A program made the translations under genes and the position numbers. The notes under the pieces are model-generated. The model searched no databases. It worked only from the letters and a program-made list of their open reading frames with translations, and was not told the origin of the DNA. DNA of 64,000 bases. It comes from a virus (lineage: Duplodnaviria > Caudoviricetes). Below are positions 3,117 to 28,388 of the stretch, piece by piece; position 1 is the stretch's first letter, and each line of letters starts with the position of its first letter. Location: positions 32,001 to 96,000 of the IMG/VR virus record IMGVR_UViG_3300031993_000012. The stretch is one strand, 5' to 3'.

Positions 3117-3199
3117 TACCGTTTGGCGACATACACAATCACTCATGTCGTTTCGATGAGTGTCAGACAGCAATCAATGTGTATGTTCGCCGACGGGTA
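3117..3199 (+). ncRNA. putative structured small RNA with internal hairpin + ACAGCAAT
   Basis: Long closing stem TACCGTTTGGCGACATACACA / TGTGTATGTTCGCCGACGGGTA enclosing CACTCAT-loop-ATGAGTG followed by TCAGACAGCAAT. Confidence 0.5.
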
Positions 3200-3204
3200 T
3201 TTGT

Positions 3205-3285
3205 GGATGTGTGGCGGAATGGCAGACGCGCTGGTCTCAAGTACCAGTTCCGAAAGGAGTGAGGTTTCGAGTACCTCCACATCTA
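3205..3285 (+). tRNA. tRNA-Leu(CAA)
   Basis: GGATGTG/CACATCT acceptor, CTGGT-CTCAAGT-ACCAG anticodon arm, long variable arm, GAGGT-TTCGAGT-ACCTC T arm; no encoded CCA. Confidence 0.9.
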
Positions 3286-3393
3286 TTACTGGGGTTACGT
3301 TTATATTACGGCTTCTGACTTTGCGGTTCATTGCGTAACTCCAGATCACCCCTAAAACCCGGGTAGCCTTTGCGTATCTACCCGGGCAAAAAA

Positions 3394-3507
3394 CGACGGA
3401 TAACTCAGTAGGTAGAGTACGTAAAGGAATCTAGATTTAGATTCGTACAGCAATCAGCTTGCATTCTAAGCACGGTGTCGTAGGTTCGAGTCCTACTCCG
3501 TCGACCA
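3394..3507 (+). ncRNA. tRNA-like gene with 38-nt insertion in anticodon stem (TCT/Arg anticodon if removed)
   Basis: Perfect acceptor CGACGGA/TCCGTCG+ACCA, D and T arms; insert 3423-3460 splits CGT|GC; residual arm CGTGC-ATTCTAA-GCACG. Confidence 0.75.
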
Positions 3508-3508
3508 A

Positions 3509-3608
3509 TGGTCATGATGGGTAATTCCCCATCTTGTATTTAAGATGGTAACAGCAATCATCGGTGAATAAATGACGTTCGAATCGTAAATATTATTCAT
3601 CATGACCA
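3509..3608 (+). ncRNA. tRNA-mimic-like RNA with hairpin-ACAGCAAT module
   Basis: TGGTCATGATG/CATCATGACCA closing stem ending in CCA, CCATCTT/AAGATGG hairpin + TAACAGCAAT, T-loop-like ACG-TTCGAAT-CGT. Confidence 0.55.
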
Positions 3609-3614
3609 ATCTAT

Positions 3615-3722
3615 GCGGATATTAGCTCAATTGGATAGAGCGTACGGCCATAAGGAATCTAGATTTAGATTCGTACAGCAATAACACCATAAGGTTATCA
3701 GTTCGAATCTGATATATCCGCG
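3615..3722 (+). ncRNA. tRNA-Arg-like body with anticodon loop replaced by the hairpin-ACAGCA module
   Basis: GCGGATAT/ATATCCGC stem, GCTC-AATTGGATA-GAGC D arm, ATCAG-TTCGAAT-CTGAT T arm; 39-nt loop containing AAGGAATCTAGATTTAGATTCGTACAGCAAT. Confidence 0.7.
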
Positions 3723-3726
3723 AATC

Positions 3727-3835
3727 AAACCCATTAGCCGCATAGTTTAGAATAGGTTAAAACGCTGAATATAATCTGAGCATACTAGGACTATTCGGAA
3801 AAGGTTGTTCGAATCGACCTGGGGTTAATGAGTTT
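3727..3835 (+). ncRNA. degenerate tRNA-like RNA with enlarged anticodon arm
   Basis: D arm GTTT-AGAATAGGTTA-AAAC, CTGAATA/TATTCGG stem with 20-nt loop, GGTTG-TTCGAAT-CGACC T arm, extended closing stem. Confidence 0.55.
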
Positions 3836-3843
3836 AATCATAT

Positions 3844-3960
3844 GAAGGTGTTAGTTTAGTTGGTTAAAACGCGTTAAGGAATCTAGTGATAGATTCGTAC
3901 AGCATATTATTTGCATATGGCGCACGAGACACATGTTCAAATCATGTACACCTTCTTCCA
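3844..3960 (+). ncRNA. tRNA-His-like gene with 38-nt insertion in anticodon stem (ATG anticodon if removed)
   Basis: 8-bp GAAGGTGT/ACACCTTC acceptor (G-1:C73-like); insert 3875-3912 splits CGT|GC; residual arm CGTGC-ATATGGC-GCACG. Confidence 0.7.
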
Positions 3961-14931: not shown

Positions 14932-15205
14932 TCACCCCATGTTTTACACGATCTGCTTGTTCAGCATATTTTGCGTCATTGAATCTACTAAGGTCGCCTG
15001 CTAAATAGCCCGTCACGCGGCGTATACGAACAAATGGAACTGAATGTTTATGAACTTCCAGTTTTGCATATCCTTTAGAATCAAATGATATTATCAATGT
15101 ATCAATGATTTCATCAGGATATTTCTTCGTTACGTAATCAACGTATGCTTGTTTCTCGGCCTCGGATATTTCGGTGATATCACCGTGCTTGAATATGATG
15201 TTCAT
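14918..15205 (-). CDS. stand-alone NrdD C-terminal glycyl-radical domain protein
   Basis: RIRRVTGYL...RFNDAKYAE..DRVKH matches the class III ribonucleotide reductase C-terminus; only 95 aa; RBS AAGGAGG. Confidence 0.8.
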   Translation of the reverse strand: MNIIFKHGDITEISEAEKQAYVDYVTKKYPDEIIDTLIISFDSKGYAKLEVHKHSVPFVRIRRVTGYLAGDLSRFNDAKYAEQADRVKHGVNENE

Positions 15206-15396
15206 ACAGAACCCTCCTTGATAATATAATTATATTAAACCATTGTACAATTATCTAGAATTCTTAAATTCTATATTTATATAATTCTTATGTATAATAG
15301 GAAAGTAACACTTTCTATTATCATATAATATCAATCTTTACGGGTTGTTCCCAGTGTATCTGTACAGATATGCGAATAACAAGAAAGGAGTACGTT

Positions 15397-16176
15397 ATGG
15401 CACGTACAAAGAAAACAACAGTAGAGGAAGCAACTGAGGAGAAGGTTGCATTCCAGCCCAAGAAGACAGTGAAGCTGTTCTTCTTCACAGAAATCCTTGG
15501 AAGCTGCCCCGCAGACAAGGAGATCTACTCAAAGTACATCGCAAAGAATCGTCTTGATGCACCAACCATTCAGGACGAACTCCAGATGGTACCTGAGGAA
15601 GAAGTTATCGAGCAGGGAACCACTTGCTTCCTGGTGAGGACCCACGGAAAGGATAAGGGTAAGCCCTGTCTGGCAGCGTATACAATTCTCGGTTTCATGA
15701 AAGAGAAGACCAAGTATCTCCGTCAGGAACCCGGTAATGGATTTGACAAATTCACCAACTACAAGTCCAAAATCGATGGTAATTTCAACATTGATAAACC
15801 GTTCATTACATTACATCTTCCCGAAGGAGAAGAAATGGGTATCTGTCAGAGACCTCTCAGGGCCGAGACTGCGCAGGGTCCGAGAGTAGCACTCGCTTCC
15901 AGCCTCACATGCCCTCCCGGTACAACCTGCGAATTCGAGCTCTATATCAATAACAAGGAGTTCAATAAGTACGCAATCGGTTGTCTCCGTAAAGGTTTCC
16001 TCAGTGGAACCGGTCAGTGGCGTTCTTCTCAGCAGAAAGGCAGATTCCTGTTTGAAATCTATGATGCTGATGATACTTATATTGACGGTAATACCAAAGA
16101 ACATGTAGGTTGTCTTTCAACTGATGCCAACTGGGAAGAAATGTGGAGCGACTTCCTCGACGAATATCGTCTGTAA
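15397..16176 (+). CDS. solitary Cas7/RAMP-like protein
   Basis: N-terminal strand KLFFFTEILGS, helix ILGFMKE, thumb-like RPLRAETAQGPRVAL, PGT.CEFEL, and C-terminal Gly loop GFLSGTGQWRS...GRF typical of RAMPs; RBS GAAAGGAG. Confidence 0.75.
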   Translation: MARTKKTTVEEATEEKVAFQPKKTVKLFFFTEILGSCPADKEIYSKYIAKNRLDAPTIQDELQMVPEEEVIEQGTTCFLVRTHGKDKGKPCLAAYTILGFMKEKTKYLRQEPGNGFDKFTNYKSKIDGNFNIDKPFITLHLPEGEEMGICQRPLRAETAQGPRVALASSLTCPPGTTCEFELYINNKEFNKYAIGCLRKGFLSGTGQWRSSQQKGRFLFEIYDADDTYIDGNTKEHVGCLSTDANWEEMWSDFLDEYRL

Positions 16177-16190
16177 TACCTAATACCAAT

Positions 16191-16220
16191 AATGAGCGCG
16201 GATAAAACCGCGCTCATTTT
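16191..16220 (+). terminator. intrinsic terminator / processing hairpin
   Basis: AATGAGCGCGG-ATAAAA-CCGCGCTCATT-TT. Confidence 0.75.
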
Positions 16221-16250
16221 GTATGCTGACTGAAACCAGTACTGTTTTAA

Positions 16251-17263
16251 GTGTAAAGTAAAGTCGAGTTAGGTTCAGTATTGGTTCAGTGGAGTTAAGT
16301 CTAGTCATGTACAGGTGTTGTGGAGCGGCGCTGTGTTTGGGTGATGCAAAGCGAAGTCTTGCTTAGGTATAGTACGGTATTGTCCCGTATGGGTATGATA
16401 ATGTTCCGCAAAGCACAGTGAGCTTTTGTAACGGTAAAGCTGAGTATTGCAGCGTTGAGGTATAGTCAAGTATGGTTGTGTGCTGTATAGGTCGGGCGAA
16501 GTTTCGTTCTGTATAGTGACGGTATAGTTATGAAGCGTAGCGTAGAGGTATGGCACGGTTACGCGCTGTACAGGCATAGTATGGTATCGTTATGTCATGG
16601 CACTGCATTGTGGTGTCTGGCATTGGCAATGCAAAGTAACGCGAAGCATTGGTGCAGTGAGGTGTTGTTCTGTGAAGGCATCATTATGAATCGTATTGTA
16701 ATGTGTGGATTTAGCTCGGTCTAGTTTTGTCCGGTGACGGCGTAGTAATGTTAGGCGAGGCGATGCAAAGGTGTCGTGCAGTGAAGCACCGTTTAGGCAT
16801 GGTAAAGCATAGCTTTGTTTAGGTGCGGCTGAGTCTGGTCCGGTTTTGTGAAGGTGCAGCAGGGTTCCGTGGTGCACTGTGGCGTAGAGTATCGGTATAG
16901 TCACGTAAGGTTTGGTATAGGCATGGTGTAGTAAAGCATAGTTGTGGTATAGCTATGCATCGTAAGGTTTGTATTGGTATAGTGTAGTCCTGTAACGCTG
17001 AGCACTGGTGTAGCGAGGTATTGCTCTGTCGAGTGGTGGTAAAGCATGACAAGGTAATGTTGAGTAGAGGTGAAGTGAAGTCTTGCGGGGTTTTGCTGTG
17101 GTACTGTGATGCGACCTATTGCTTTGTATTGGTACAGCTCAGCACTGTAATGTCGTGTCAGGTTCAGGTACAGTTTAGCCAAGTGAGGTGGAGTATAGTA
17201 TAGGTATAGATATGTACAGTCAAATGCTGTCAAGGTTAAGCTGAGTAAAGTCTACTTCTGTAA
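16251..17263 (+). repeat. nested pentamer array 1: about 34 units of G(GYNNN)n, putative guide-RNA array
   Basis: Hand parse, e.g. GGTGAT-GCAAA-GCGAA-GTCTT-GCTTA|GGTATA-GTACG-GTATT-GTCCC-GTATG; G/T-rich, C-poor plus strand. Confidence 0.9.
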
Positions 17264-17294: not shown

Positions 17295-17696
17295 ATGAAA
17301 GATAAGAAAATCAAGAAAGTTTTGAAGTCGATTCAAAACGGAGAAATCTCAGCCAAACAACTGAAAGAAATCCTTGCTGAAAACCCCGAACTCAAAGACA
17401 TCATTGACTTAGTGAATCCTGAAGTCACATGGAAGAAACATCCAATGTATCCGTTCGTGGAAACATCGAGCAATGGTCAGATTAAAGTTTCTGGTGAACT
17501 TGTAAAGCCACGGGTATGGGATGGCTTGTTGAAAGTAACGCTGCAGTATGGCAAGAAACGGTTATACGCAGCGTTACTCATATTACAATGCTGGGAACCA
17601 TGTCCGGGTAAATTAACCGACTATACTGTCGGTTACATTGACGATAACGTCAATAACCTAAAGCCGTCTAATCTATATTGGAAGGCCAAAAAATAA
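17295..17696 (+). CDS. NUMOD4 + degenerate (probably inactive) HNH domain protein
   Basis: E.TWK...YP..ETSSNGQIK (NUMOD4-like); VGYIDDNVNNLKPSNLYW aligns to V.H.DG...NN...NL.W with His replaced by Tyr; RBS AAAGGAG. Confidence 0.7.
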   Translation: MKDKKIKKVLKSIQNGEISAKQLKEILAENPELKDIIDLVNPEVTWKKHPMYPFVETSSNGQIKVSGELVKPRVWDGLLKVTLQYGKKRLYAALLILQCWEPCPGKLTDYTVGYIDDNVNNLKPSNLYWKAKK

Positions 17697-17708
17697 ACGA
17701 CAGTTTAT

Positions 17709-19010
17709 GTGTAAAGTAAAGTGTGGTTCTGTCGTGTTTTGGCATAGCAATGTGTGATATCGTTTCGTATTGGTAAAGCAGAGCATAGTGTAATGCTGTG
17801 AAGGTATGGTAGGGTAAAGTAACGCAAAGGTATCGCGTTGTTCAGTGATGTGACGGTTTGGTAGGGTAATGTAGTGTGTAGCTATGGCATAGCGATGTTC
17901 TGTGAAGTGCGGTCGCGTATTGGTATCGTAAAGTATTGCGGTGTCGCGTAGAGGTTTAGCTTGGTGCTGTATAGTACTGGTGGAGCATAGTTAGGCACAG
18001 CTGGTCTTTGTTTTGTGCTGGTATGGTATGGCGTAGTATAGTCTGCAACGGTGTAGCAAAGTAGCGCGGTGTTCAGGTATAGTGATGATAGTTTTGTTCT
18101 GTATCGGTAAAGTGCTGTATTGCTGGGTAATGGTATTGTATTGTCGCATATTGTCTTGTGAGGGTGAAGGGCAGTATTGTCGCGTAGAGTAGCGGCAAAG
18201 CATAGTGATGTCGCGCAGCGTCATGGTAAAGTCAAGTGATGCTATATGGTGTCAGGTGATGGTAATGTGGGGCAATGTGTAGTATAGTAGAGGCGAAGTC
18301 TAGCGATGCTAGGTTCTGGTGTAGTATAGTACCGGAACGTCTAGTATTGGTACAGTGGAGTACAGCGTTACGAAGTGCTGGTACTGTTAAGTGATGTGTA
18401 GTGTCGGTATGGTAATCCGTAGTGTAGTAGAGGTAATGTGGGGTGTGGCACTGTATAGGTGTGGTGTAGTGTTGTATCGTAATGTCAGGTAATGGCAACG
18501 TAGTACATGGCAATGGTTCAGTGTAGTGCCGCATAGTCACGTAGAGGTTTAGTCTGGTGCCGCATGGTCAGGTTGCGGTTTAGCCTAGTTTCGCTTAGTC
18601 CAGGTAATGTTAAGTCTAGTGTAGTTTTGGTTCAGTGATGTGTGAAGTAATGGTATAGCAATGTCTGGTACTGGTATGGTATAGTCACGTGAAGTGTCGG
18701 TTTGGCGGAGTAAGGTTTAGCTCAGTGATGGCGTGGTAGAGTAAAGCGCGGCACATCGTCGTAATGGCGTAGTCTCGTATAGTATAGTAAAGGTAAAGTG
18801 AAGTATAGTGCTGTAATGTGCCGGTGAGGCAAAGCAAGGTCCCGCTTGGTATTGGTTTGGTGCAGTCAAGTTATGTCACGGTAACGCAGTACATAGTAAT
18901 GTATGGTACAGGCTCAGTTCAGTAGAGCTATGTTTTGGCGAAGCGGGGTATTGTCAAGCGTAGTATGGGTTTCGCAGGGTCCTGTTATGCATTGTGTCGG
19001 TGCTGTGTGA
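17709..19010 (+). repeat. nested pentamer array 2: about 45 units of G(GYNNN)n
   Basis: Same grammar and same first 14 nt (GTGTAAAGTAAAGT) as array 1. Confidence 0.9.
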
Positions 19011-19033
19011 CAGCATTAAAAACCTACACACTT

Positions 19034-19076
19034 AAAAAAAGAATATTCCCGGGTCGCTCCCGGGTATTCTTTTTTT
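19034..19076 (+). terminator. intrinsic terminator after array 2
   Basis: A7-GAATATTCCCGGG...CCCGGGTATTC-T7. Confidence 0.75.
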
Positions 19077-19115
19077 GTTCACGATTTGATAATTTATACG
19101 AAAGGAGTTGTTTTT

Positions 19116-19928
19116 ATGGCAACTGTATTACAACCAGACCGAGTTGTTACATGTAACGGAGTCAAGGTAAATCAATATTTTCTGACCGTGAACAATCCAT
19201 TTCATATTGATATGCCTACATCGGAAATGAATAAAGTCATTGGTGTAACAATTCACAATACCGATTGGATATCTGTTATCCAAGGTAGTACACCCGCAGA
19301 GCAATATACACGTGCAACCGTCAATGGTAATATGAATGATGTCCGTGTTCATTATTATGTTGATGATAAATGTGCATGGCAAAATTTACCATTGAATCGT
19401 GCAGGATGGCATGCTGCTGATGGTAAAGGTGATGGTAACAGAAAGACAATCGCTATTGAATGCATCATGTCACCAAATTACAATGGTATCGATCAAGCAT
19501 CAGAATTAAACTGTGCACGTTTGGCTGCGTATTTACTCCATGAATACAAACTCGATATCAATCATTTGTATACACATACACATTGGTTGAATGTTAAAAA
19601 TGGTAAACGTGGTGATGTTGATTTTTTGAATACGGATCCCAGCCCCGAGAAACGGTGCCCTTTGTATATTCTTCCACATTGGAATGAATTCAAAGAAAAA
19701 GTTCATGATTATTTGAATGAACTGAACAATGGTAATGAAATCAATCATACAAATGATATGATATATTTGAAACAAGGAACTCCGATATATCCGAACGCGG
19801 GTGTGAATACCAGAATGAGTGGAATAATAAAAACATCATGCAAATATACAATCGTTGAAAGACGTACTGCATATGGTATAACATGGGGTAGATTAAAATC
19901 AAATAAAGGATGGGTTAAATTGAAATAA
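19116..19928 (+). CDS. endolysin, N-acetylmuramoyl-L-alanine amidase (Amidase_2) with C-terminal SH3-like domain
   Basis: VTIHNT, VHYYVDD, WHAADG..GN..TIAIE, THTHW, K.CP; C-terminal YTIVE....WGRLKS.KGWV. Confidence 0.92.
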   Translation: MATVLQPDRVVTCNGVKVNQYFLTVNNPFHIDMPTSEMNKVIGVTIHNTDWISVIQGSTPAEQYTRATVNGNMNDVRVHYYVDDKCAWQNLPLNRAGWHAADGKGDGNRKTIAIECIMSPNYNGIDQASELNCARLAAYLLHEYKLDINHLYTHTHWLNVKNGKRGDVDFLNTDPSPEKRCPLYILPHWNEFKEKVHDYLNELNNGNEINHTNDMIYLKQGTPIYPNAGVNTRMSGIIKTSCKYTIVERRTAYGITWGRLKSNKGWVKLK

Positions 19929-26732: not shown

Positions 26733-27794
26733 ATGATTATGTATACACCAAAGAATTATCCTTCCGGTAGATTATCCGGAATGGTTAAACCAAAATATCT
26801 CATCATCAAAAGTTTACTTGGTGAAGATTATGATACATCACATGGAGTTGATATCTATATTGATCTCAACACATTCATTACCGCAATGATTTCATCAAGA
26901 AATTATTTGTCAGCATTACCGTTTAACGAAGACGCTCAAGCAGATATAGTTGCATCATTCATTCATATTGCATTGCATTGGAAGAACTTTTCTCGTCAAT
27001 GGGATGATGCAAAGATATTCTTGATAATGAATGATTATGAGAATCCGTTATGTTGTGAACAGAAATCATTGAAATCATACTTACATCCATACAAGGATAA
27101 AATCAATTCCAGTATGTATGATAATTTTCGTTACTATCTCACAGAAGCGGTTAATATCACACAAAAAGTATTTCAGTTCATTCCGAATATGTATCTGATT
27201 AAATGTAAAGATTTCGATTCATTAGTATTTCCAACGGTACTCAAAGGATATGAATTGAATAACAGAAAACGTATAATCGTTACTGGTAATAATCTCTTTA
27301 CAGGATATATGTTTGAACCGAACTGTCGTGTGATATATTCCAAATGTCGTCATACTGGAATATCACAAGTATACGATCCAATCATGATTGCCAAAAGCAT
27401 ATCAAAGATTGATGACGATGCAATCGATATATTCATCAAGAATAAAGTATTCTATAATATGTTGAATATAATTGTCGGTGACTTCGATCGTGGTATCCTT
27501 GGAATGACTGGATTGGGTATTACCAGAATCGCAACTGAGATTGCACGTAATTACGAAAAAGGTATTATACCGAATGATCCTAAAAGTATTGAATCATTGT
27601 TGAGTGTGGTTGATGCTAATTATCATTCGTATATAAAACAATCATATCCATTGGTGGATTTAAAAACACATGGAAACATGGTTAAACAATCATCAATTGA
27701 AACAATCAAATCCGAACAGATGATTGATAATATCGACATCGATGGTTTGAGAGAATTCTCAATCGATGGTGTAAACTTACTTGAACTGATATAA
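26733..27794 (+). CDS. divergent 5'-3' exonuclease/FEN (PIN-like) fold protein
   Basis: IYIDLNT N-terminal strand; GDFDRGILGMTGLG resembles the H3TH motif. Confidence 0.5.
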   Translation: MIMYTPKNYPSGRLSGMVKPKYLIIKSLLGEDYDTSHGVDIYIDLNTFITAMISSRNYLSALPFNEDAQADIVASFIHIALHWKNFSRQWDDAKIFLIMNDYENPLCCEQKSLKSYLHPYKDKINSSMYDNFRYYLTEAVNITQKVFQFIPNMYLIKCKDFDSLVFPTVLKGYELNNRKRIIVTGNNLFTGYMFEPNCRVIYSKCRHTGISQVYDPIMIAKSISKIDDDAIDIFIKNKVFYNMLNIIVGDFDRGILGMTGLGITRIATEIARNYEKGIIPNDPKSIESLLSVVDANYHSYIKQSYPLVDLKTHGNMVKQSSIETIKSEQMIDNIDIDGLREFSIDGVNLLELI

Positions 27795-27805
27795 TGATAA
27801 TACCC

Positions 27806-27989
27806 CGGGAAATCCCGGGGTATTCTTTTTTCTAGAAAATGGAAATTCCATATATATATTATTAATATGAAGAAAGAGTAAATAATATACTCAATCTTCA
27901 GTCAAATTAATCAAAACTTTTAACTGGGGTAACTGGTCTAGTCAACTAACCTGCAACAAATTATGTATGCAGGTCCAGGAGGTAAACTT
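27806..27989 (+). promoter_or_regulatory. duplicated promoter + structured 5' leader, copy 1
   Basis: CATATATAT..TATTATTAATATGAAGAAAGA, GAAG/CTTC hairpin, CCTGCA/TGCAGG hairpin; homologous to 28520-28694. Confidence 0.75.
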
Positions 27990-28388
27990 ATGGCAACCAA
28001 TGAAATCATCAATAATATTCTAGACAGACATGCTTGGCATGTTGGAGAAGAACATAAGTATTTCTTAGGTAACGATATCGTCTATGATTATTGGGAGGGT
28101 GATTATGAGATCCTCCCGAAGGATGATGAACCCTCTATCATTGGAATAGGGGTATCAATCTGGGATGAAGATCATGAGACTAATTTTTACGTAATTATCA
28201 CAGATGATGGTTCGCTGTATTATTACAGTGGAACAATCCGTCAAAAAGAACACATTCGTGATATTATAGTCAATAAAAAATCATCATCTTACACAAAGAT
28301 TTGTGTTCATGAGTACGCCGACGAAATCGGTTGGTCTCTTAAAGATATAATTGATTTCGCGGCACTTAGATGCCAGCTGTTCGAATAA
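27990..28388 (+). CDS. hypothetical protein (cassette 1)
   Basis: ATG 27990 after AGGAGGT. Confidence 0.75.
   Translation: MATNEIINNILDRHAWHVGEEHKYFLGNDIVYDYWEGDYEILPKDDEPSIIGIGVSIWDEDHETNFYVIITDDGSLYYYSGTIRQKEHIRDIIVNKKSSSYTKICVHEYADEIGWSLKDIIDFAALRCQLFE

What the first reader, a model, noticed from the sequence alone, without database searches (positions are those of the whole stretch)
17697..19020. Second array shares the leader GTGTAAAGTAAAGT and shows traces of local unit duplication
Seen: both arrays begin C(T/A)GTTT(T)A(A/T)-GTGTAAAGTAAAGT (16251, 17709) and then diverge. Within array 2, adjacent units share GTGCCGCAT(A/G)GTCA (about 18526 and 18557). GGTAATGTGGGG occurs at 18261 and 18432, and CGTAGAGGTTTAG at 17947 and 18540. 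ATAGTCACGT occurs in both arrays. A small hairpin TGCTGT-GTG-ACAGCA closes array 2, and AACG-N6-TA (late-promoter-like) precedes it. Inference: the arrays have a defined 5' handle and diversify by duplication, recombination and point mutation rather than Cas1-Cas2 acquisition.
Basis: partly seen in the sequence, partly recalled or inferred. Interest (0 to 1): 0.7.

Follow-up and report, generated by a model that had tools for sequence, protein, structure and literature searches.

The report
Shared start module of phage VIPR arrays

Summary
Every motif quoted is at its stated coordinate. The two blocks (16252-17262, 17710-19003) consist of 196 and 250 NNNG(T/C) units, with an extra G mostly every 26 or 31 nt. 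They lie beside a Cas7-fold gene whose 80 sampled viral homologs all have such arrays. This fits the staggered YNNNG guide arrays of VIPR systems (2026 preprints), which this scan has already met on other DNA.

The shared start is real. The chance of identical first units is about 1e-4. The 12-mer GTAAAGTAAAGT also opens an array in the only IMG/VR clade-mate (41% protein identity). It is absent from the rest of the 182-kb genome. In both arrays it sits in the loop of a stem built from different sequences, and four relatives stay alignable as far as those stems.

Generic shared k-mers are not enriched against three grammar-preserving shuffles. Only the 31-nt tract at 18515-18621 is borderline. 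AACG-N6-TA is not enriched.

Comparative data still support diversification without Cas1, through whole-unit indels, block replacement, rearrangement and tandem duplication of whole guides. It is a new member of a known kind with an undescribed start module. No RNA data and no targets were obtained.

The parts
15201..15230 (+). Sigma-70-like promoter candidate upstream of vipr (TTCATA-18-TATAAT, 10 of 12)
   Evidence: This is a consensus match only.
15397..16176 (+). vipr: Cas7/RAMP-fold protein. The likely start is the ATG at 15397, behind an AAGGAG ribosome-binding site. The mechanical ORF starts at 15370.
   Evidence: Searches give the ORF and start. One search found 371 homologs. The AF2 model has pLDDT 86. 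Top Foldseek hits are all Cas7-type RAMPs at E about 1e-6. hhalign to the SUSP1 Vipr gives E 2.8e-4 with the G-loop aligned.
16191..16218 (+). GC-rich hairpin after vipr (11 bp) followed by TTTTG. It may be a leaky terminator or an mRNA 3' stabiliser.
   Evidence: I7
16229..16290 (+). Start module of array 1. The 5' arm 16229-16244 pairs with the 3' arm 16276-16290 (15 bp, one bulge, one G.U). The 31-nt loop holds GTGTAAAGTAAAGT (16251-16264).
   Evidence: One search gives z -3.98, with 0 of 200 shuffles folding as well. In one search, 1 of 500 5'-flank shuffles was as stable. Relatives stay aligned to 16284-16293, and C16236T in all four keeps the pair as G.U.
16252..17262 (+). Array 1: 196 NNNG(T/C) units, with super-units mostly 26 or 31 nt
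17295..17696 (+). ORF133: HNH-endonuclease-like accessory gene between the arrays (candidate vap)
   Evidence: phrog_959 at E 7e-11. It is 42% identical to the ORF directly after vipr in L001, E 6e-24. It shows no similarity to SUSP1 vap1.
17685..17743 (+). Start module of array 2. Outer stem: 17685-17691 with 17737-17743. Inner stem: 17697-17703 with 17729-17735. The 25-nt loop holds GTGTAAAGTAAAGT (17709-17722). The 5' arm overlaps the ORF133 stop codon.
   Evidence: 14 of 500 flank shuffles as stable; I5, I11. The inner stem lies in the part conserved in relatives. The outer 3' arm is deleted in some relatives.
17710..19003 (+). Array 2: 250 NNNG(T/C) units, with super-units mostly 31 or 26 nt
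18515..18621 (+). The only candidate local duplication: a 31-nt unit, 3.5 copies, 72% matches. It contains GTGCCGCAT(A/G)GTCA twice.
   Evidence: Relatives differ here, with a 5-nt insertion at 18514 in X2 and a 54-nt skip 18515>18570 in X4.
18994..19020 (+). Conserved 3' end of array 2 with the hairpin TGCTGT-GTG-ACAGCA (19001-19015)
   Evidence: All four relatives regain alignment at 18994 after unrelated array content.
19036..19076 (.). Bidirectional intrinsic terminator closing the locus
   Evidence: I1, I6

Best explanation
The finding lies in array 2 of a two-array VIPR locus of a 182-kb bovine-gut phage. The layout is vipr, start module, array 1, an HNH-like accessory gene, start module, array 2, 3' hairpin, terminator.

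The arrays are 'staggered' YNNNG-type vrRNA arrays. Each 5-nt unit would bind one Vipr protomer through its G and pyrimidine. An extra G every 5-6 units delimits about 76 short guides of 26 or 31 nt.

The shared 'leader' is a conserved, array-specific start module. Its core is GTAAAGTAAAGT, two in-frame AAAGT units, displayed in the loop of a stem. The stem forms between the non-array 5' flank and the first array units.

I infer that it acts on the RNA, at each junction from coding sequence to array. It would be a processing and/or Vipr-loading signal that sets the 5' end and the register of the first guide. The stems are long enough to be double-strand RNase substrates.

The arrays have no acquisition machinery. 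They change by gain and loss of whole units or guides, block replacement or recombination between related phages, occasional tandem duplication of a whole guide, and substitutions at the three N positions and T/C toggling at Y.

Shown: the anatomy, the fold of the protein, the protein-array association, conservation of the module, and the modes of change among relatives.

Inferred: transcription as one unit, the RNA-level role of the module, and guide function.
For: Periodicity is confined to these two blocks in both the 64-kb window and the 182-kb genome. G is present at 95-97% and Y at 97-98% of their positions in pentamers.

The Vipr candidate has a confident RAMP fold. It aligns end to end with the SUSP1 Vipr, keeping the G2- and Y3-contacting W and R. 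The two G1-reading residues are changed (D177 to Q, H17 to S/T), which fits an NGY rather than a GGY repeat.

All 80 of 80 homolog loci have same-strand pentamer arrays. The preprint lists YNNNG repeats and staggered arrays.

Start module: the identical-start probability is 1.3e-4. The 12-mer is invariant in four array starts or sub-starts across two phages. There is no other copy in the genome and no near-copy above chance in the window. Stems enclose it in both arrays. The conservation boundary in four relatives falls at the 3' arms.

In several related families the array starts within about 20 nt of the upstream stop codon, which leaves no room for a separate promoter.

Diversification. No Cas1.
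Against: There is no RNA evidence at all, so transcription, processing and any retained handle are untested.

L001 keeps the 12-mer but has no enclosing stem. The stem may therefore be dispensable or specific to this lineage.

The outer stem of array 2 is deleted in some relatives.

The array 2 stem is only modestly better than shuffles (p about 0.03).

No targets were found under any reading rule.

The hhalign probability to the SUSP1 Vipr is only 41%.

TAAAGT inside the motif resembles a -10 hexamer, so a promoter role is not excluded.
Confidence: 0.7

Rival explanations
1. The shared start is a DNA-level promoter or transcription-start element dedicated to each array. TAAAGT would serve as a -10-like hexamer, and the conserved bases would not be part of any functional RNA.
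For: Array 1 and the L001 array lie 25-35 nt after a GC-rich hairpin that could terminate upstream transcription. TAAAGT matches TATAAT at 4 of 6 positions, including A2 and T6. In SUSP1 each vrRNA is preceded by its own conserved upstream block.
Against: No -35 element is shared by the three starts, and the consensus scan reports no + strand promoter there. The motif is used nowhere else in 182 kb. Array 2 starts 12 nt after the ORF133 stop codon with no terminator between. The motif is in frame with the unit grammar. The stems and the conservation boundary extend about 25 nt downstream of it.
Confidence: 0.25
2. The identical starts are only a relic of a past duplication of one array, leader included. 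They have no function of their own.
For: Two arrays on the same strand, each preceded by a similar 22-nt stretch, could arise from one segmental duplication.
Against: The arrays share nothing else above chance, so a neutral relic should have decayed too. The 12-mer is kept in L001 at 41% protein identity, where the flanks are unrelated. It is conserved in four relatives while the array content next to it is replaced.
Confidence: 0.05
3. The similarity of adjacent guides at 18515-18621 reflects selection for several guides against variants of one target, meaning convergence or maintenance. It would not be a neutral trace of recent duplication.
For: Published VIPR guides often converge on one target element. 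The copies differ mainly at N positions while keeping the frame.
Against: Families of similar guides would still most simply originate by duplication. Near-perfect tandem duplicates exist in related arrays. No target is known here.
Confidence: 0.15
4. The blocks are not guide-RNA genes. They are a DNA-level protein-binding or structural array, with G-pyrimidine steps every half helical turn (21-nt super-period).
For: The autocorrelation peak at lag 21 equals two helical turns. There is no RNA evidence.
Against: There is a strict association with a RAMP-fold RNA-binding protein on the same strand in 80 of 80 loci. The strand asymmetry, terminators and stems fit a transcript. Homologous systems have been shown experimentally to make such RNAs.
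Confidence: 0.03

Closest known systems
VIPR systems with 'staggered' vrRNA arrays and YNNNG-type repeats (bioRxiv 10.64898/2026.04.26.720920, text, methods and legend of fig. S18)
   Same: The locus is phage-encoded. A small RAMP-fold protein sits next to same-strand pentanucleotide repeats with fixed G and pyrimidine and hypervariable N. There is no CRISPR array and no Cas1. An accessory gene is present. The guides abut one another with one extra base at each boundary.
   Different: The locus is very large, at about 446 units (about 76 guides) in two arrays. The accessory gene sits between the arrays. A conserved start module, the 12-mer in a stem-loop, is not mentioned in the text of the three preprints I could search. 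The preprint did not confirm staggered arrays experimentally. I could not assign a type (I-VII) because no supplementary file of the preprint is held as text.
Type II VIPR of Escherichia phage SUSP1 (KT454805.2: a 195-aa ORF that I take to be vipr, a 146-aa ORF that I take to be vap1, and four vrRNAs)
   Same: The proteins are distantly homologous (hhalign E 2.8e-4) with a conserved G-x-G-x-W-R...G-R-F G-loop. Both have 5-nt repeat guides and a conserved element at one end of the guide region.
   Different: SUSP1 has GGY/NN repeats, separate vrRNAs of about 100 nt with 9-16 repeats, and a conserved 3' pseudoknot tail. Here the repeats are NGY, the short guides run continuously, the conserved element is at the 5' end of the whole array, and the accessory protein is unrelated. 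The G1-reading residues D177 and H17 are replaced.
CRISPR arrays (leader plus repeats and spacers with Cas1-Cas2 acquisition)
   Same: Both are arrays of guide units beside a RAMP protein. Both have a conserved 'leader' at one end and a variable body that differs between strains.
   Different: There are no 25-40-nt direct repeats separating spacers, and no Cas1. Guide information is interleaved with fixed bases, so it cannot be copied directly from a target. Turnover is a mosaic along the whole array rather than polarised at the leader.
RNase III processing hairpins of phage polycistronic RNAs (for example T7 early RNA), and tracrRNA:pre-crRNA processing
   Same: There are stems of about 14-18 bp with a bulge or internal loop at the junctions between functional RNA segments. 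This resemblance is from my general knowledge and from sequence inspection only.
   Different: No cleavage data exist. The loop carries a conserved 12-mer, which such sites do not need. The host and its RNases are unknown.

Membership tests
VIPR system | Small stand-alone RAMP-fold protein (RRM core, G-loop, thumb) related to Vipr | tested here: met
   The AF2 model has pLDDT 86 and pTM 0.81. Foldseek gave 143 PDB matches at E<=1e-3, with the top ones all Cas7-type RAMP subunits (Csm3, Cmr4, Cas7-11, type VII Cas7). A profile hit to Cas7 has E 7e-4. hhalign to the SUSP1 Vipr gives E 2.8e-4 (probability 41%) with the G-loop aligned.
VIPR system | Adjacent same-strand tandem pentanucleotide repeats with fixed G/Y and hypervariable N positions | tested here: met
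   The same is seen in 80 of 80 homolog loci. In related families the N positions change about three times as often as G.
VIPR system | Minimal, mostly viral locus without a CRISPR array or adaptation genes, with a vap accessory gene | tested here: met
   The context is a phage (endolysin at 19086-19928; virus record). No Cas1 was found. An HNH-like ORF133 is conserved with L001. Cas2 was not searched.
VIPR system | vrRNAs are expressed and bound by Vipr | not testable with these tools
   No RNA run was available for this locus.
VIPR system | Guides match natural targets by a gapped (1-nt skip) or related code | tested here: inconclusive
   No rule gave an excess over shuffled guides in 2.9 Mb of local DNA. 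Two long guides read contiguously had no exact match in genome contigs or viral contigs.
Staggered vrRNA array (fig. S18 of the preprint) | Guides abut, and the end of one marks the start of the next (1-nt overlap) | tested here: inconclusive
   The sequence pattern fits, with an extra G giving 26- and 31-nt super-units (58 of 76). Processing sites cannot be seen without RNA data, and the figure itself is not held.
CRISPR-Cas | Direct repeats separating unique spacers | tested here: not met
   TRF and repeat searches find only the 5-nt rhythm and one degenerate 31-nt tract.
CRISPR-Cas | Cas1 adaptation integrase | tested here: not met
   PF01867 is absent from the 182-kb record, while 7 control genomes are positive. 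The record is about 68% complete.

The most novel reading that the evidence does not exclude
GTAAAGTAAAGT, presented in a stem-loop at each junction from coding sequence to array, is the dedicated entry signal of staggered VIPR arrays. It would be a processing and Vipr-loading site that fixes the register from which some 35-45 consecutive 26/31-nt guides are measured out. That would make it a functional counterpart of the CRISPR leader plus first repeat. The extra G every 5-6 units would correspond to one turn of the Vipr filament.
Probability: 0.3. Interest if true: 0.6.

Novelty: new member of a known kind. Interest (0 to 1): 0.42.

Why it matters
VIPR systems were described only in 2026. 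Their staggered arrays appear in one supplementary figure, and the preprint reports no experimental confirmation of them. How such arrays are started and cut into guides, and how they gain new specificities without Cas1-Cas2, are open questions.

This locus offers a compact, testable start element: a 12-mer with flanking stems, present twice in one phage and again in a distant relative. Its natural variation across strains shows that arrays change in whole-unit steps and by block exchange.

The G-loop substitutions that accompany the NGY repeat also suggest how repeat specificity is encoded in the protein. These are refinements of a known system, not a new one.

Tried and rejected
The contigs of the closest homologs (P0001-P0005, 95-59% identity) could not be fetched, so no base-by-base array comparison with close relatives was possible.
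- Scans with the single protein found nothing in viral contigs or metagenome contigs. The 20-mer of the 3' hairpin gave only three chance hits in metagenomes and none in viral contigs.
- blastn of the locus against phage genomes gave no match. Rfam gave nothing relevant.
- No RNA holder was listed among public runs, so 5' ends could not be mapped.
- The 13-mer scan of IMG/VR gave 48 loci. Only L119 (the same contig as L001) is an array start. The internal hits in L083/L084, L118 and L126 could be chance, given how many arrays exist.
- My attempt to quantify AAAGY doublets at array starts across all loci failed, because the block caller was too lax on GC-rich contigs. I make no claim that the doublet is general.
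- Target search: four reading rules against own genome plus loci showed no excess. Two long guides read contiguously had no exact hits.
- The preprint's supplementary files are not held, so the VIPR type could not be assigned.
- Rejected: a CRISPR reading, AACG-N6-TA as a promoter motif, and dispersed k-mers as evidence of duplication.

Full report
**What is there**

The region consists of two non-coding, G/T-rich and C-poor blocks (A 0.23, C 0.13, G 0.33, T 0.32). They are built from a 5-nt rhythm. Autocorrelation of G-pyrimidine steps peaks at lags 5, 10, 16 and 21, and it does so only in these two blocks within the 64-kb window and within the whole 182-kb genome.

A dynamic-programming parse gives 196 units in array 1 (16252-17262) and 250 units in array 2 (17710-19003). 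About 82% of units are NNNGY pentamers and about 17% are NNNGGY hexamers. In pentamers, G is present at 95-96% of its position and T or C at 97-98% of theirs. The hexamers divide the arrays into super-units, mostly of 26 or 31 nt (58 of 76).

**Identity**

I read the three preprints and tested the claim myself.

- The gene upstream (15397-16176) has no Pfam or PHROG match, but it has 371 homologs.
- Its model is confident (pLDDT 86). Its best structural matches are all Cas7-type RAMP subunits. A profile of the family weakly hits type VII Cas7 and Csm4.
- All 80 viral loci fetched through the profile carry pentamer-periodic blocks beside the gene on the same strand.
- I located what I take to be the founding SUSP1 locus in KT454805.2, from its gene sizes and flanking gaps. 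The gap I read (27480-28040) contains NNGGY repeats.
- The SUSP1 protein aligns end to end with my profile (hhalign E 2.8e-4, probability 41%).

The G-loop alignment is convincing. According to the cryo-EM preprint, W178 and R179 hold G2 and Y3, and both are conserved here. D177 and H17 read G1, and here they are replaced by Q and by S/T. That matches a repeat in which only G and Y are fixed. The H17 equivalence rests on a weakly aligned segment.

The preprint's methods list YNNNG as an alternative repeat, and its fig. S18 legend describes staggered arrays in which one guide ends where the next begins.

No Cas1 is encoded in the record.

The small gene between the arrays (17295-17696) is HNH-endonuclease-like. 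It is homologous to the ORF directly following vipr in L001 (42% identity, E 6e-24). It is therefore a conserved accessory gene and not a stray insertion.

**The shared start**

The 14-mer occurs exactly twice, at the two array starts. Given the unit repertoire, the chance of identical first two units is about 1.3e-4. Otherwise the arrays share nothing above chance.

L001 is the only IMG/VR clade-mate, by both the Vipr homolog (41% identity) and the accessory gene. Its downstream array opens with GATGTAAAGTAAAGT after a hairpin, and it has a second, internal GGTAAAGTAAAGT. The 12-mer GTAAAGTAAAGT is the only block invariant across the four sites.

**Stems around the shared start**

In both arrays the motif lies in the loop of a stem formed between the non-array 5' flank and the first array units.

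- Array 1: 16229-16244 pairs with 16276-16290 (15 bp). The fold has z -3.98, and 1 of 500 flank shuffles was as stable.
- Array 2: 17697-17703 pairs with 17729-17735, and 17685-17691 pairs with 17737-17743. Here 14 of 500 flank shuffles were as stable, and the arms are also listed.

The two stems have unrelated sequences. L001 has no enclosing stem.

**Relatives**

Contigs from four other studies were laid on the locus. They align through vipr, ORF133 and both start modules. They lose alignment at 16284-16293 and, in one X3 contig, at 17742, which is at the ends of the 3' arms. C16236T, seen in all four, keeps its pair as G.U.

Inside the arrays they are a mosaic:

- 5-nt indels (18187-18189 and 18514).
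- A 30-nt deletion (17736-17766).
- Skips of 104-141 nt.
- Replacement of 383 nt by 283 unrelated letters (18610 to 18994).
- A joint that goes back 416 nt.
- An X2 contig in which the end of ORF133 is followed by an array-1-like leader.

All four regain alignment at 18994, just before the 3' hairpin. The 30-nt deletion removes the outer 3' arm of array 2 in some strains, so only the inner stem is consistently kept.

**Duplication traces**

Repeated 10-, 12- and 14-mers and the longest repeats are not above three grammar-preserving nulls. In-register unit similarity at any lag is also not above null.

The one exception is the 31-nt tract at 18515-18621. Its TRF score of 100 was reached in 1 of 300 shuffles under each of two nulls. 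On variable triplets alone the test gives p=0.17.

The process itself is real in the family:

- Among related arrays, TRF finds 24 distinct tandem tracts. Of these, 21 have periods of 5n+1 (16-46 nt), and identities run from 63% to 100%.
- Copy number differs between near-identical relatives, with L013 at 2.2 copies and L020 at 3.2 copies.
- L058/L064 carry a near-perfect 26-nt duplication that their relatives L073 and L079 lack.
- Indels between such relatives come in whole units (5, 10, 11, 16, 26, 31, 36, 41, 62 nt).
- Substitutions fall equally on the three N positions (0.20-0.23) and on Y (0.17), but are rare at G (0.06).

**Other items**

AACG-N6-TA is under-represented in the genome and absent before array 1. 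Its ACGACAG is the 5' arm of the inner stem.

In several related families the array begins within about 20 nt of the upstream stop codon. This favours co-transcription with later processing.

The cryo-EM filament has six (binary) or five (ternary) protomers per turn. That is the same number as the units per guide here. The link is my inference.

**Limits**

There are no RNA data and no targets.

**Verdict**

This is a large new member of the VIPR family with a conserved, apparently undescribed array-start module.

Noticed in passing
window 15397-16176 (residues about 213-226) versus L133:28474-29061(-): The G-loop of this Vipr clade reads G-T-G-Q-W-R, where SUSP1 has G-V-G-D-W-R. The residue that reads the first G of GGY in SUSP1 is Q in at least 90% of 41 aligned homologs. 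This parallels the NGY repeat of the whole clade.
   Followed up: partly
window 16180 and 17692-17703; relatives X2 and X3: In relatives, TAAACGACCA is inserted just after the vipr stop codon. It resembles TAAACGACAG, which follows the ORF133 stop codon here and forms the 5' arm of the array 2 stem. A 'stop codon plus ACGAC' junction motif may mark both transitions from coding sequence to array.
   Followed up: no
window 19001-19015 and 17217-17231: Both arrays have a small ACAG/CUGU hairpin near their 3' end. The array 2 hairpin ends in ACAGCA, the same hexamer that earlier notes describe as a handle in small RNAs at 3117-3912 of this window. Here it is base-paired, so this may be coincidence.
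   Followed up: no
window 17622-17635 versus 17694-17707: The 5' arm of the array 2 stem can also pair with a segment inside ORF133 (14 nt, 86% complementary, I4). This would compete with the stem that encloses the leader.
   Followed up: no
window 17295-17696: The HNH-like accessory protein matches phrog_959 at E 7e-11. I did not check the active site.
   Followed up: no
window 15201-15300: A strong sigma-70-like promoter candidate (TTCATA-18-TATAAT) and AT-rich 15-nt direct repeats (15267-15296) lie upstream of vipr.
   Followed up: no
L126:3150-3627 and L118:3200-3500: Other viral arrays use different punctuation. L126 has a conserved hexamer AAATGY every 41-46 nt. L118 has separators AAGGT AAGGT TTT(T)AAT. 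No Vipr homolog lies within either fetched stretch.
   Followed up: partly
L013:5571-5650 versus L020:5535-5650: Near-identical phage contigs differ by one copy of a 36-nt guide unit (2.2 versus 3.2 copies at 97-98% identity). This is a clean example of recent guide duplication.
   Followed up: partly
L001:5424-5842: The clade-mate L001 has an additional array upstream of vipr. That array does not begin with the 12-mer. It starts after a small hairpin, GGGA-TTAAGT-TCCC.
   Followed up: no
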